Positions 7,347-16,939 of a DNA stretch of 64,000 bases are shown one piece after another; within the stretch, counting starts at the first letter, position 1; the number at the start of each line of letters is the position of its first letter. The DNA comes from Neodothiora populina (lineage: Eukaryota). The stretch spans positions 1,054,001-1,118,000 of the forward strand of contig NW_027191409.1 in assembly GCF_041146345.1 (NCBI RefSeq), given 5' to 3'. Position numbers and translations under genes: made by a program. The notes under the pieces were generated by a model. The model was not told where the DNA came from. It ran no database searches and was given only the letters and a program-made list of their open reading frames with translations.

Positions 7347-9794
7347 ATGGAGAGCACTTGGGAGTTGATGGACGATGAGTACAACAACTTGGTCAACTGG
7401 GACGCGATAAGTATCCCTACTGCGTCTTCTTCTTGGGAGCACGTCGAAAATGAGTCCGCTTCCATTTCGCAGGGTGTAGCTGCCGACGATAGTTTTTTAA
7501 ACGTCAACAGCATAAGGCACTCTGATGAACAGGCGACTCCAGACCAAATAGCGACTATTACACCGCCAGGAAATTCTGCCTATGCAGATCATGCTCACTT
7601 TGGTGGGGACATCCCCCAAGTTATGCAAGGTGCTTGTACCTTGCTTGACGGAAGTCCGAGTCTCCCATCAACTCTCCAGCTGGATGAATCATCTTACTCA
7701 ACGCCATTTGACATCGTTGAGATCGACCATCAAGCATCCTATGGCTATCAGCCTGTGGAGGATCTTGGGGACCCCATTATATATTCCGCAATACCGACCA
7801 CCTATCATGTTCGCTCCCTTGACTTTGGGGATACTCGGTTCAACAGTTCGGAATCAAATCCGCAGATTGAACCATGGACCTCAGGTCTAAGCCCATCATT
7901 CCCTGCACCAGTCTACGACACTAGTGTGCCACTGGCGTATGGGATACCACCATGGAATACAACTTTATCGCTCACGCCTGAAGTCATGATAGAGAACACA
8001 TCGAATCATGGAGGTGAAGCTGTCAACGAGCACATGCTGGGGATTCAGAGTCTCATCACTCCAGCAAATGAGGCTCCATGGACTGCGTATAGGATGCAAT
8101 ATGCATCCCTCGCACAGAACAGTCCTCCACAATCGTTGCTAGGTCTACATGAACAGCCATTGCGAGTCAGGGACCTTCAGCCTGTGTCTCGCATCGCAAC
8201 ACACTCATCTCGTGGGCGAGGAAGTGTACGATCATTAGCACACGCAATCAGACCTCGGGAAGATCAATCACAGTCGCGAGAGCCTCGCAATCTGCAGATG
8301 AATCTTGCCACCCAACAGCGGCCTAGATATGGCGGCAGGAAAGGTGGGCTGCCCGCGGCAAAAAGGACCCAAGCAAGCGCAATGAGACAGAAGGGTGCGT
8401 GTTGGATATGCGCGCTCCAGCGAATTCAATGCGACAATACTGGTGACACATGTAAAAGGTGTTCTGACAGGCTTAACGCACAGGGTCCGTCACACCCTCT
8501 GCCCTGTACTCGCCAGCCTTTGACAGACTTGGCGGATTCTTTTCTACCAAATAAGATGACGAACATACATCGCCATGAAGCTATACAGGACTTCCTGAAG
8601 ACAAGCATGAACCAGTGGGTCGATGGTCATAGTGGCCGCGGAATCGAGGTCCACCTTACTATCGGTTACGGACCACCGCTGCTATTGGTCATGCATGAGT
8701 TCGTACCTCGCCAAGCTGACGTAGTTGCGCAGTTACAGTGGGTACAGGACGAGAATGGGAAAAGGACCAGTGTCACGAAGCTATCGCCGCCGCTTGCGAT
8801 CAAAACTCTGAATCGGCACGAAGAATACAAACACTATGAGAAATTTCTCGATCGCATCATAGAAAACCATCTTGACGCCTTCGAGAAGACCTACTGTGAG
8901 GACCAAGACGATGATCCCTTTCGCAAGGATATGTTTAGACTCTTGTGTACGCTCTTTCGAGGATTGGCTGCGAATTCTATGGTAGGTGCCGCGGGCCGAA
9001 GGTTTTCAAGCAGCAGATCTGACATAGGATCATAGGATAACGTTCTGAGGAAGGATCTTTCGATGGCGTTTAGAAGCATCCTCACAACCGACATAATGCT
9101 GCATCACGTCATTCTCGAAGAAAGCTCCAAAGCTGAAGTGATCTCCCAGTTGAGCTGCTATAATGATCCCTCGAGTTATGGGTCATATACTTCTCCAAAA
9201 GTGGCGAATCGTCAACTAAAGTCGTTCTTTTCGTCATTGCAGAAGAAATACTACGAAGACTTATTGTCCCGTTATCACGGAATCTTAAGATCTGGCAAAG
9301 GAAAAGAGAAAGAGCGCAGGTGGATTTCCTCCTTTGTAATCATGCTTGCGCTTGCACTCTGTGAGGAGGAGATGCAACATACGCGTGTTTTACGCGCAGA
9401 TGGAGATCGACAACGAAACGGTGGTGACTCGGCATATGAGTTCGAGCATGCAAAGCAGGACTGCCGAGAGATTGACAGGGCATTCGACTTTCTAGTCAAA
9501 CTATTCCATTGCAAATACAGTCGCCAAAGACGACATCAAGCTCAAATTGATGATTGGCAAACCAAGCCCGAAAGTCAGGCCGAGAGAGGTTTTGTGCATA
9601 GTCTTGTCGACCTTAGCCAAAGCCACCGTAAGTGATCTCTGCATTTGATCTGTTCGGTAAATTTGCTAACTGTTTCAGGAATGAATTTGCTCATGCGAAA
9701 AGATTGGAACATTCCTTCCACTATCGATCACAGCTACAAGTCACGACTCGTAGCTCAATTCTTGGTCGGCTTTTTTGGGCTTGGTGGCCATTAA
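7347..9794 (+). CDS. Fungal transcription factor with an internal atypical Zn2Cys6 cluster (paralog A)
   Basis: GGRKGGL...MRQKGA-CWICALQRIQCDNTGDTCKRC-x14-C; acidic disordered N-terminus; introns 8982-9035 and 9628-9678 keep frame. Confidence 0.85.
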
Positions 9795-14170: not shown

Positions 14171-16939
14171 ATGACCATGGCACCCTCCCCTTCTACAGAA
14201 AGCCAAACCAGAGATGACATTATACTTTGTGAATCCATAGAAGAATTCGGTCGACAATACACAAGTGGTGTCTTTGAAACACCTTCGTCGCCGGCGATGG
14301 AGCCTCCCGAAATCGACAATACCACCGGAATGTCCAGTGTTTACTCTTCGGATACCGGTGAAGTGCAAGTTCTCACGCCCTCGTCTACGTCTGACGAAGA
14401 CCAGCTGTCTAGTTCGGCGAGTATGGGCGATGGCAACTACGAGATACTCGATCTTGTCACTACACCACAGGTCCCAAACCCTGCCCTTCAGGCATTAGGT
14501 TCTCCTGCCAGCAGCTCTGATGGCTTCACTATAGCTTCTTTTGATACGAACAGCTCCTCTCGTATCAGCCTCTCACCTGTAGCTTTTATCCCAGATCTGG
14601 CAGGATCCTATGATTATCAGTACGATAACGATAGCTTGCACTGGTCACCACAGCTACAGAACGATGATCTTAGTATAAGCTCCGGAAGCTCATTGATGTC
14701 GAGCTTTCCAGACCTCGCCCTGCTCTCTGCCACTGCATCTCAAGACCCAGCGCTTGCGCTTGCGTACGCGTCGAATCTGACCTATCCCATACTTTCGGAC
14801 CCATTTGTCCCCTCATATGCCCCCCAGCACGGCTACTCAGTCGATCTCCCACCTGGCACCGCACTACAAAGCCCTATGGAAACGAATGCATCTGCAGCAC
14901 AGCATTTGACGCCACTCTTCCCCGACCAAGAGCTCTCCGAATCACCTACAAGTATGATTTCAAGTGCACAAGGCCAATGGAATGCATCCCTTGCGTTATC
15001 TTATGACGTGCCTCAGCCAGTGTACGAAGCCTCGAATTACCCGACTTCTCAGCATGAGTCTTACGAAGCTCTAAATTGGCACGAACTCACTGCACCATCC
15101 GTTGAACTGGCTATGAACCCATCGATACAGGACATTGCGAATCCACCGTCACTGAGTCGCTTCAGTTCTTCTTCGAACACACCCAGAGCCGATGAGTACA
15201 TTCCCCGTTCGCATCCAGAGAACACACACCGTGAGCAGCAACAGAGCCTCAAAGTAACTCCGCCACCCCAACATCAACGCCGCCAAGCGGTGCGGTCCAG
15301 ATCTTCACGTCAATCTTCTCACTCGCACTCCCCCGGATCGTCCACACTCTCATCCCCAAGCTCGATCACCAGTCCAACACTGATCAAGGGTGTCATGAAA
15401 GGTGGTAGAAAGGGGCCGCTCCGCGAGGAGGGTCGCAAGCACGCGGCCGATATGAGAGGAGATGGATGCTGGCCATGTGCTATCATGCGTGAAAAGTGTA
15501 GTAAAGGCGAACCATGTACTCGATGTGCTTCCAAGTCACACCAAAGCAAGGCACATGGACTGGGATGTGATCGCAGACATTTGAACAGAGACATGTGGTG
15601 CTCCTTCATCCCTTGTTAGTACAGCCTTCCACCATTTGCTATTGTTGAGGCTAATGATTGTAGCCTCCATGGACCCGGGACAGAGATATGCCGACATGAT
15701 GGCGTACGTCAACAAGGACGTGGCTGGGTGGTACGATCACCCTAGCGCTCGACGCGGTATATACGTACCGTTCTCCATTGGTATGTTTTCATTCGAGTAA
15801 TTATCAAACCCATGCACATTTGCTGACTCAAAATTTTCAGGAATTGGACAACCATTGACTTGGCTTTGTCATGAGTACCAGCCCAGTATGCAGAACACTT
15901 CGCACAATATCAGCTGGAACATAGGTGGACACGGAGACACATGGCGTCGTACCTACAGTCTGTCGCCTCCCTTGGCCCTGAGAAGTCTCGATCAAGAGTA
16001 TCTCAATGTCTGGATGGACCATCTGATAGAGCACAATCTTGAAGATGTTCAGGATATGTATTATTGGGAAGGCCATCAAATGCGCACGCAGGTGCTTATC
16101 TTACTGTGTTCGCTTTATGATGGCCTTCGCAGACAATCTCCTGTATGTTTACCACTTCGCACAGATCGAGATTCAAAAGCTAATCACTGGCACAGAACCT
16201 CTCCAAGACTTCCGCCATGCTCAAGGACGACGTTCGCAACGTCATTACTCTGATGTTGGTCACGTATGTTATGAACCACGCCTTCACGGTCGAAGAAGAA
16301 CTACGCGACTCGGTCATTCGCCAGCTTTCACGCTACAATGACCCTAGCTTATATGCTGAGATGGTCATCCTGAAAACTGCCAACTCGCAGCTGAAGTACG
16401 GCTTCTCGAAGTTGCGACTTACTATGCATCGTGCCTTGCTCGCGAGACTGCAAACGATCATGAGGAACGCCAAATACAAGGATTGGTGGCTGTCCGGCTT
16501 CGTTGTGATGCTAGGTCTGGCGCTTACACTTGAGGAGTATCAGCATCTTCTACATGTCCAGGCGGACTCACGCATCGCCGAAGGAAAAGACCCAGCCAGA
16601 TCCATGCAGCGAGCCAGAGATCACTGTACGGAAATCGACGAGGGCTTCGAATTCCTACTGAAACTATATCATTTCAGATATAGTGCAAGAGGTCAAGACA
16701 AAGCCTCGTTTGCACAATGGACTGAACACACTTCGAACCCAGCCGAAGCACATTTTGTCGCACAGTTGCCTGAGCTTGTTGCTCAATACCGTAAGGTGAC
16801 CTTGAATGCGGAGAGGAAACAAACATGCTGACAACTTGCAGGAATCGTTTTGCTGCAACGTAAGGACCTCGAGGTTTGCCTTGAGGAAGATAACCATGTC
16901 TTGCGTCTAGCCAGTCGATTCTTGACCGGTGTGATGTAA
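14171..16939 (+). CDS. Fungal transcription factor with an internal atypical Zn2Cys6 cluster (paralog B)
   Basis: GGRKGPL...MRGDG-CWPCAIMREKCSKGEPCTRC-x13-C; introns 15615-15663, 15781-15840, 16143-16195, 16791-16841. C-terminal domain aligns by eye with paralog A (QLSxYNDPS, ANxQLK, EExQH, CxEID..F.FL.KL.H). Confidence 0.85.

What the first reader, a model, noticed from the sequence alone, without database searches (positions are those of the whole stretch)
7347..16939. Candidate module: two paralogous atypical Zn-cluster regulators sandwiching the microprotein gene
Seen: genes A and B are co-oriented paralogs with unrelated acidic N-termini. They share the GGRKGxL..R..A..MR..G-CxxC cluster, the C-terminal helical domain and two equivalent intron positions. 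The only credible gene in the 4.4-kb gap between them is the microprotein, which is divergent from paralog B. No biosynthetic enzyme lies in between. Inference: a self-contained circuit in which the TF pair (possibly a heterodimer) drives the peptide and/or the peptide modulates the TFs, for example a bistable developmental or epigenetic switch. I do not recognise this arrangement as a described system.
Basis: partly seen in the sequence, partly recalled or inferred. Interest (0 to 1): 0.78.

Follow-up and report, generated by a model that had tools for sequence, protein, structure and literature searches.

The report
KpeA-type regulator pair flanking a microprotein gene
Two old duplicate copies of a known fungal regulator type (KpeA) sit side by side with a small, conserved, unannotated 50-residue protein gene between them, and the trio seems to be kept together in related fungi, but nothing yet shows that the three work as one circuit.

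Summary
The window is Neodothiora populina (Dothideales). Gene A (7347-9794, 780 aa) and gene B (14171-16939, 851 aa) are co-oriented paralogs. They are 35% identical over 455 aa (E 3e-71). Both have unrelated, acidic, lysine-free N-termini, a shared GGRKG basic stretch and a six-cysteine cluster in mid-protein. One intron sits in the same codon and phase in both; a second is near-equivalent.

The family is already described. It is the atypical Zn(II)2Cys6 protein KpeA of Aspergillus oryzae (Pfam PF27566), which acts on conidiation and kojic acid production.

The 50-aa ORF between them (11822-11670, minus strand) is a real gene:
- Three homologs of 49-61 aa carry the same triple PQPxDxGG repeat.
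- Conservation with a metagenome contig is confined to the ORF.
- dN/dS is about 0.17.
- It has the best codon score in the gap.
It has no Pfam match and is not in the protein collection for this genome.

A-type, microprotein and B-type homologs all report a longest contig of 9,120 nt. An A-type and a B-type homolog both report 18,943 nt. This suggests the arrangement is conserved in relatives such as a Delphinella-like fungus. That is the same family, so common descent is enough to explain it. The proposed TF-peptide circuit is untested. Interest is moderate.

The parts
7347..9794 (+). Gene A, an A-type KpeA-family protein of 780 aa. Exons are 7347-8981, 9036-9627 and 9679-9794; introns are 8982-9035 (phase 0) and 9628-9678 (phase 1).
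   Evidence: Splicing was checked. The C-terminal 360 aa are identical to NCBI protein P0001 (AAFC00_003693), which carries the precomputed label PF27566. A-type homologs P0002-P0005 score 218-231 bits to A against 101-116 bits to B.
8331..8507 (+). Basic GGRKG stretch of A (from aa 329) and its six-cysteine cluster CX2CX6CX6CX2CX14C (aa 352-387, nt 8400-8507).
   Evidence: Pfam Zn_clus matches below threshold only (14.6 bits against a cut-off of 21, E 0.035).
9795..11669 (.). 1,875-nt spacer between the stop of A and the stop of the microprotein gene (tail to tail).
   Evidence: No ORF here scores like a gene. No Rfam or tRNA match lies here. GC is lowest in the window at 10-12 kb (0.451).
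11670..11822 (-). Microprotein gene: 50 aa, net charge +7, pI 10.5, 10 Pro and 8 Gly. It has three PQP[GK]xxG(G/A) repeats (PQPGDNGG, PQPKGRGA, PQPGDDGG). ATG is at 11822 and the stop at 11672-11670.
   Evidence: Homologs P0007, P0008 and P0010. tblastx similarity to contig L001 lies only in this ORF. pN is 0.35, pS is 0.73 and omega about 0.17 over 48 codons. It has the best codon score of 33 gap ORFs. A CT-rich leader and a TATA-like CATATATA sit about 170 nt upstream.
11823..14170 (.). 2,348-nt divergent intergenic region shared by the microprotein gene and gene B.
   Evidence: The ORFs of 118 and 109 aa here have no Pfam match. There is no DNA similarity to the 2.17 kb upstream of the homologous microprotein ORF in L001, which also lacks long ORFs.
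14171..16939 (+). Gene B, a B-type KpeA-family protein of 851 aa. Exons are 14171-15614, 15664-15780, 15841-16142, 16196-16790 and 16842-16939; introns are 15615-15663, 15781-15840, 16143-16195 and 16791-16841.
   Evidence: Nine of 9 homologs of exon 4 (57-69% identity, one at 41-45%) carry PF27566. They score 184-283 bits to B against 91-131 bits to A.
15401..15568 (+). Basic GGRKG stretch of B (from aa 411) and its six-cysteine cluster CX2CX6CX5CX2CX13C (aa 433-466, nt 15467-15568).
   Evidence: Pfam Zn_clus gives 14.8 bits against a cut-off of 21.

Best explanation
A and B are two anciently diverged paralogs of the KpeA family. These are atypical fungal Zn(II)2Cys6-like nuclear regulators with an acidic disordered N-terminus, a basic stretch plus six-cysteine cluster in mid-protein, and a beta-plus-helical C-terminal domain. 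The two genes have stayed next to each other.

Between them lies a genuine, conserved but unannotated gene for a 50-aa basic, Pro/Gly-rich, probably disordered protein with three PQPxDxGG repeats.

The three-gene arrangement is inherited within the Dothioraceae.

By analogy with KpeA, A and B most likely act as transcriptional regulators of development (conidiation) and secondary or accessory metabolism, each with its own sub-function. The microprotein gene shares a 2.3-kb divergent control region with B. It is most plausibly an independently functioning gene that may be co-regulated with B or be a local target of A or B.

Shown here: paralogy, family assignment, that the micro-ORF is a real gene, and no enzyme between the genes. 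Inferred: co-location in relatives (from contig lengths), regulator function (from the family) and any coupling.
For: Paralogy and shared introns.

Family:
- P0001 is identical to A's C-terminal 360 aa and is labelled PF27566.
- Four of 6 hits and 9 of 9 carry PF27566.
- The Atlas names PF27566 'KpeA' in the nearest clusters.
- Review passages give KpeA's phenotype: deletion raises kojic acid six-fold and lowers brlA, abaA and wetA (PMC11121810; PMC8303533).

Two separate orthogroups.

The microprotein is real:
- A profile search of 1.84 billion representatives gave P0008 (E 3e-22) and P0010 (E 6e-4), with the same length class and triple repeat.
- Similarity to L001 is limited to the ORF.
- Omega is about 0.17.
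- It ranks 1 of 33 on codon score.

Synteny:
- P0003 (A-type), P0010 (microprotein) and P0025 (B-type) each list a longest contig of 9,120 nt.
- P0002 (A-type) and P0014 (B-type) each list 18,943 nt.
- P0004, a near relative of P0003, clusters with a Delphinella strobiligena protein. That species is in the same family.

C-terminal domain: the AF2 model has pLDDT 78.8 and pTM 0.81, with four strands followed by a helical bundle. The best structural rows are the ligand-binding domains of the Zn2Cys6 factor Upc2: Z 6.8, rmsd 4.5, 186 aligned; and Z 6.3, rmsd 3.3, 149 aligned.
Against: - Co-location in relatives rests on equal contig lengths, not on seen DNA.
- The only fetched contig with a microprotein homolog (L001, 2,695 nt) shows no KpeA gene. 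It holds only 2,174 nt upstream of the ORF, less than the 2,348 nt that separate the microprotein ATG from B here, so it is uninformative.
- No expression data exist for any of the three genes.
- The microprotein is absent from the protein collection for this genome.
- The P0007 match alone was not significant (E 5.4).
- The local Pfam copy lacks PF27566, so membership rests on precomputed labels.
- B itself was not scanned; only its orthologs carry the label.
- The Upc2 similarity is in the range that helical models reach by chance (note). Foldseek found nothing at E 0.001 or better.
Confidence: 0.72

Rival explanations
1. This is the functional module the first reader proposed. A and/or B directly control transcription of the microprotein gene, which would be a local target, as with cluster-resident Zn2Cys6 factors. 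Alternatively or additionally, the microprotein binds A or B and modulates them, giving a feedback switch.
For: - The trio appears conserved on one 9,120-nt contig in a relative.
- B and the microprotein gene are divergent across a long shared region with no other credible gene.
- More than 2 kb upstream of the microprotein ORF is also free of long ORFs in L001.
- The paralogs have stayed adjacent although they are only 35% identical.
- The C-terminal domain may resemble a ligand-binding domain (weak).
Against: - The conservation seen is within one fungal family, where descent suffices.
- The microprotein shares no similarity with A or B, unlike classical microProteins that mimic a TF's dimerisation domain.
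- No shared promoter element was established. One 8-mer is locally enriched but was chosen post hoc.
- There is no expression or binding evidence.
Confidence: 0.18
2. The micro-ORF is a precursor of a processed or secreted repeat peptide, such as a RiPP or pheromone-like signal. The flanking regulators would be its pathway-specific controllers.
For: The core motif is repeated three times and is conserved across four family members. Repeated cores are typical of fungal repeat-peptide precursors (recalled knowledge).
Against: - The sequence shows no N-terminal hydrophobic signal peptide.
- It has only one KR dipeptide rather than KR-flanked cores, and no Cys or CaaX end.
- No tailoring enzyme of the known kinds lies in the module. 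The neighbours are an alcohol dehydrogenase, a short-chain dehydrogenase and riboflavin synthase.
Confidence: 0.04
3. The micro-ORF is not translated. The region between A and B is only regulatory or non-coding DNA, and the module is simply a tandem TF pair.
For: - The ORF is not annotated in the public proteome.
- It is only 50 codons long, of low complexity, and has no RNA evidence.
- The single-sequence search gave only E 5.4.
Against: - Homologs share start, length class, stop position and three repeats.
- Omega is about 0.17 with near-saturated synonymous change.
- Similarity to L001 is restricted to the ORF and its frame.
- It has the top codon score in the gap, at the mean of true genes (0.235 against 0.245).
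Confidence: 0.06

Closest known systems
KpeA of Aspergillus oryzae (Pfam PF27566; UniProt Q2UJJ4 as cited in PMC10888127)
   Same: Both have an atypical Zn(II)2Cys6-type cluster placed in mid-protein rather than at the N-terminus, followed by the conserved KpeA domain. The PF27566 label sits on A's own C-terminal protein and on B's orthologs.
   Different: Here two diverged paralogs (35% identity) lie in tandem with a microprotein gene between them. I found nothing of that kind in the passages I read on KpeA. The original paper (Arakawa 2019) is not held. Orthology of A or B to KpeA itself was not tested, because no KpeA sequence was available.
Canonical Gal4-type Zn(II)2Cys6 factors (Pfam PF00172)
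   Same: The first five cysteines follow CX2CX6CX5-6CX2C. Weak matches to Zn_clus (E 0.03) and to Gal4 and Cep3 chains (E 2.2-7.4, not significant) fall on this stretch.
   Different: The match is below Pfam's cut-off (14.6 and 14.8 bits against 21). The last spacing is 13-14 residues, where my recollection of the canonical spacing is 6-8. The cluster follows 350-430 residues of acidic disordered sequence instead of opening the protein.
Upc2 sterol-binding C-terminal domain (PDB 4n9n, 7vpr)
   Same: These are the best structural rows for the helical part of A's C-terminal domain (Z 6.8 and 6.3). Both proteins are C-terminal domains of fungal zinc-cluster factors.
   Different: Z is under the level that helical bundles reach by chance. 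Sequence identity is 6-9%. Foldseek finds nothing significant. No ligand is implied.
microProteins that titrate transcription factors (for example plant LITTLE ZIPPER or miP1; recalled, not searched)
   Same: Both involve a very small protein encoded near or with TFs and proposed to modulate them.
   Different: Classical microProteins are homologous to a protein-interaction domain of their target TF. This 50-aa protein has no similarity to A or B and is predicted to be disordered.

Membership tests
KpeA family (Pfam PF27566) | Match to the PF27566 profile | tested here: met
   The test used precomputed labels only. P0001, identical to A residues 421-780, carries PF27566. Nine of 9 homologs of B exon 4 carry it. 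The Atlas names it KpeA. The local Pfam copy lacks the model, so no score against its gathering threshold was computed. B itself was not scanned.
KpeA family (Pfam PF27566) | Six-cysteine Zn2Cys6-like motif placed in mid-protein (the 'unique' feature named in the title of Arakawa 2019; the placement detail is recalled) | tested here: met
   A has it at aa 352-387 of 780 and B at aa 433-466 of 851.
KpeA family (Pfam PF27566) | Regulatory role in conidiation and secondary metabolism | not testable with these tools
   The phenotype is known only for A. oryzae kpeA (passages in PMC11121810, and PMC8303533).
Canonical fungal Zn(2)-Cys(6) binuclear cluster (PF00172) | Score at or above Pfam's gathering cut-off | tested here: not met
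   A scores 14.6 bits and B 14.8 bits against a cut-off of 21.
Canonical fungal Zn(2)-Cys(6) binuclear cluster (PF00172) | Spacing CX2CX6CX5-12CX2CX6-8C (recalled consensus) | tested here: not met
   The first four spacings fit. The last is 14 residues in A and 13 in B.
Upc2-like / Fungal_trans_2 ligand-binding domain | Structural match of the C-terminal helical domain | tested here: inconclusive
   VIA-align gives Z 6.8 and 6.3 to Upc2 domains, within the chance range for helical models. Foldseek finds no match at E 0.001 or better. No Pfam Fungal_trans or Fungal_trans_2 hit appears at E 1 or better.
Fungal repeat-peptide (RiPP/pheromone) precursors | Signal peptide, KR-flanked repeated cores and neighbouring tailoring enzymes (recalled features) | tested here: not met
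   The sequence has no hydrophobic N-terminus and only one KR. No such enzymes lie in or beside the module.

The most novel reading that the evidence does not exclude
The A-microprotein-B trio is a conserved regulatory unit. The 50-aa PQPxDxGG-repeat protein would be a dedicated partner of the two KpeA-type paralogs, either as a peptide ligand or titrator of their Upc2-like C-terminal domains or as their private target. Together they would form a feedback switch for a developmental decision such as yeast/hyphal growth or conidiation in Dothideales. This would be a first case of a non-homologous microprotein wired to a fungal zinc-cluster pair.
Probability: 0.08. Interest if true: 0.7.

Novelty: new member of a known kind. 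Interest (0 to 1): 0.35.

Why it matters
KpeA-type proteins are widespread in filamentous ascomycetes, but in the passages I read only A. oryzae KpeA is described. This locus gives three things:
- A clear case of two old paralogs kept in tandem.
- A correction to a truncated public gene model: the annotated protein lacks the zinc cluster.
- A small conserved protein family that gene callers miss.

If the trio proves to be functionally coupled, it would offer a compact, testable model for how microproteins interact with fungal zinc-cluster regulators. If not, it remains an ordinary piece of conserved synteny.

Tried and rejected
- **Whole genome of the window.** None is held, so paralog counts and other microprotein copies in the genome could not be checked.
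- **Expression.** No RNA holder is listed for the stretch. Contigs of three runs were laid. X1 is probably the source assembly. X3 and X4 hold only short pieces (a small share). None of this is used as evidence.
- **Complex prediction.** A's C-terminal domain (P0001) was tested with the microprotein. The verdict was 'no answer', score 0.00 against a mark of 0.34, and the controls were not run. This is evidence neither for nor against binding.
- **Atlas look-up of the microprotein.** It gave no usable hit.
- **Earlier findings of this scan.** Look-ups by place, by sequence (twice) and by words returned nothing relevant.
- **Metagenome scan for microprotein loci.** That contig, L001, is 2,695 nt and too short to reach a neighbouring gene.
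- **Representative search.** P0009 (555 aa, E 4e-5) was dropped as an unrelated long repeat protein with PPSKPESDGK-type repeats.
- **Sequence search of the PDB with the family profile.** Nothing was significant; the best E was 0.64.
- **Rfam and tRNA.** There is nothing in the gap. One weak snoRNA-like row lies outside it.
- **Repeat search.** It showed no repeated element shared by the promoters beyond short chance-level matches.
- **Literature.**
  - 'PF27566' gave 0 papers.
  - 'microprotein' + 'Cys6' + 'fungal' gave 4 papers, none relevant.
  - 'KpeA' gave 35 papers. Of the 20 listed I read passages of five, and none mentions a paralog pair or an adjacent small gene.
  - The original KpeA paper is not held.
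- **Rooting the duplication.** I did not attempt a rooted tree to date the A/B split, because no outgroup sequence was available.
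Full report
**Origin and layout**

A protein identical to part of gene A is NCBI 'hypothetical protein AAFC00_003693 [Neodothiora populina]' (P0001). The species is a member of Dothideales, family Dothioraceae.

The rest of the window carries ordinary housekeeping genes: riboflavin synthase, MutS, Met-tRNA synthetase, GH47, a kinase and others. An alcohol dehydrogenase and a short-chain dehydrogenase lie upstream of gene A. 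There is no secondary-metabolite core enzyme.

**Gene models**

- Gene A is open from the ATG at 7347 and has two short GT..AG introns, 8982-9035 and 9628-9678.
- Both A introns are the ones used in the NCBI model P0001.
- P0001 starts only at residue 421 of my model and so lacks the zinc cluster. Yet the frame is open, and A-type homologs align from about residue 237 onward, including an 813-aa Delphinella model. The public model therefore looks truncated at its 5' end.
- Gene B (ATG 14171, stop 16937-16939) needs four introns. I placed them with tblastn against homologs and by reading the sequence.
- A is 780 aa and B is 851 aa.

**Checking the observation**

BLASTP of A against B gives 35% identity over 455 residues, E 3e-71. 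The match runs from GGRKG to the C-termini.

The N-terminal 300 and 360 residues are strongly acidic (net -27 and -38). They are rich in Ser, Thr and Pro, contain no lysine, and show no significant similarity to each other.

Both proteins have six cysteines: CX2CX6CX6CX2CX14C in A and CX2CX6CX5CX2CX13C in B. Pfam's Zn_clus profile matches the first part of each, but only at 14.6 and 14.8 bits against a cut-off of 21. 'Atypical Zn-cluster' is therefore a fair description.

A's second intron and B's fourth split the aligned arginine codon in phase 1. A's first and B's third are both phase 0 and lie five residues apart inside an alignment gap.

**What the regulators are**

- The precomputed Pfam label on P0001 is PF27566. 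Four of the 6 hits and all 9 hits carry it.
- The Atlas names the family KpeA and places a full-length homolog among ascomycete clusters of up to 998 members.
- KpeA of Aspergillus oryzae is described in review passages as a novel, widely conserved Zn(II)2Cys6-type protein. Its deletion raises kojic acid six-fold, raises kojR and kojA, and lowers brlA, abaA and wetA (PMC11121810). It is treated there as a repressor (PMC8303533).
- The original paper is not held. My local Pfam copy lacks the model, so membership rests on the precomputed labels and on architecture.

An AlphaFold2 model of A's C-terminal 360 residues was built on an alignment of 19 sequences. It has pLDDT 78.8 and pTM 0.81, and shows a four-stranded sheet followed by a helical bundle. 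Foldseek finds nothing significant. The all-against-representatives search puts the ligand-binding domains of the zinc-cluster factor Upc2 at ranks 1 and 3 (Z 6.8 and 6.3). Such values are within the range helical models reach by chance. I treat this as a lead only.

**Two orthogroups**

- Homologs found with A's cluster and mid-region score 218-231 bits to A and 101-116 bits to B.
- Homologs found with B's exon 4 score 184-283 bits to B and 91-131 bits to A.

The duplication therefore predates the divergence of the fungi these sequences come from, and A evolves faster than B. An Acidomyces protein (P0011) is about equally far from both, at 32% and 29% identity. Without an outgroup I could not date the split further.

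**The microprotein**

The ORF on the minus strand (ATG 11822, stop 11672-11670) encodes 50 residues with three PQPxDxGG-like repeats. A CT-rich leader and a TATA-like element lie upstream.

- It is absent from the 5.8-billion-protein collection. The word-based search found one weak hit, P0007 (E 5.4).
- A profile of the two sequences, searched against 1.84 billion representatives, found P0008 (59 aa, E 3e-22) and P0010 (49 aa, E 6e-4). It also found an unrelated 555-aa repeat protein, which I dropped.
- All four small proteins share the Met start region, three repeats and a stop a few residues after the third repeat.
- One homolog lies on a fetched metagenome contig, L001. Between L001 and the window, blastn finds nothing significant and tblastx finds only this ORF in this frame.
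- Over 48 aligned codons, pS is 0.73 and pN is 0.35, giving omega of about 0.17.
- On a codon-usage score trained on 14 confident genes of the window, the ORF ranks first of 33 ATG-ORFs of 35 aa or more in the gap. Its score of 0.235 sits at the mean of true-gene 50-codon windows (0.245, sd 0.16).

I conclude that it is a real protein-coding gene of a small, undescribed family. It has no Pfam match and no Atlas hit.

**Nothing else credible in the gap**

- The three longest other ORFs have no Pfam match.
- There is no tRNA and no Rfam family there.
- The two spacers are long, at 1,875 and 2,348 nt.

**Is the arrangement recurrent?**

No fungal genome set and no contig look-up were available. 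I used the contig lengths the protein tools report.

- A-type P0003, microprotein P0010 and B-type P0025 each list 9,120 nt as their longest contig.
- A-type P0002 and B-type P0014 each list 18,943 nt.

Two exact coincidences among a few dozen possible pairs of contigs of 1-35 kb are very unlikely by chance. I infer that the trio shares one contig in one relative and that the TF pair shares one contig in another.

P0004, a close relative of P0003, clusters with a Delphinella strobiligena protein. That species belongs to the same family as Neodothiora. The linkage is therefore real but shallow, and common descent explains it.

L001 is too short to test linkage. It holds 2,174 nt upstream of the ORF, against the 2,348 nt needed here.

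**Mechanism**

The best-supported reading has three parts:
- A and B form a tandem pair of KpeA-type regulators that have diverged in function.
- A separate small basic disordered protein is encoded between them.
- The whole arrangement is inherited within the Dothioraceae.

Coupling is possible. Fungal zinc-cluster factors often sit next to their targets, and B and the microprotein gene share a divergent control region. I put transcriptional or physical coupling at roughly one in five.

A secreted repeat-peptide reading is unlikely. There is no signal peptide, there are no KR-flanked cores, and there are no tailoring enzymes nearby.

**Verdict**

- The regulators are new members of a known family.
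- The microprotein is a genuine new small family.
- The circuit idea is open but unsupported.

Noticed in passing
window 7347-8606: The public protein for gene A (P0001, AAFC00_003693, 360 aa) starts at residue 421 of the open frame and so omits the acidic N-terminus, the GGRKG stretch and the zinc cluster. Homologs, including an 813-aa Delphinella model, cover this part. The public model looks truncated at its 5' end.
   Followed up: partly
window 7347-8246 and 14171-15250: The acidic N-terminal regions of A (300 aa) and B (360 aa) contain no lysine at all, although they hold 10 and 7 arginines. This is a 'lysine desert' of unknown meaning.
   Followed up: no
window 6826, 9181, 9799, 11992(-): The 8-mer GGTCATAT occurs 5 times in the window against 1.45 expected; 1 of 100 shuffles reaches 5. 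Four of the five copies lie in the module: about 520 nt upstream of A, in A exon 2, just after A's stop, and at the TATA-like element of the microprotein gene. The motif was picked post hoc from the repeat list, so this is weak.
   Followed up: partly
window 17297-17419 (-): There is a weak H/ACA snoRNA-like match (S_pombe_snR92, 26 bits against a gathering score of 80, E 0.086) downstream of gene B. It is probably chance.
   Followed up: no
L001 1-2174: The metagenome contig with a microprotein homolog also has more than 2.1 kb upstream of the ORF without any long ORF. This parallels the long gene-free region upstream of the microprotein gene in the window.
   Followed up: partly
window 15615-15663 and 15781-15840: Gene B has two extra short introns just after the zinc cluster. 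Gene A lacks them, so introns were gained or lost after the duplication.
   Followed up: no
window 11479-14986: Run X3 (organism B) holds short contigs of 96-390 nt that are identical, or differ by one letter, to scattered pieces of the gap and of B's first exon. Most run on into unlike sequence. Their origin is unclear and they were not interpreted.
   Followed up: no
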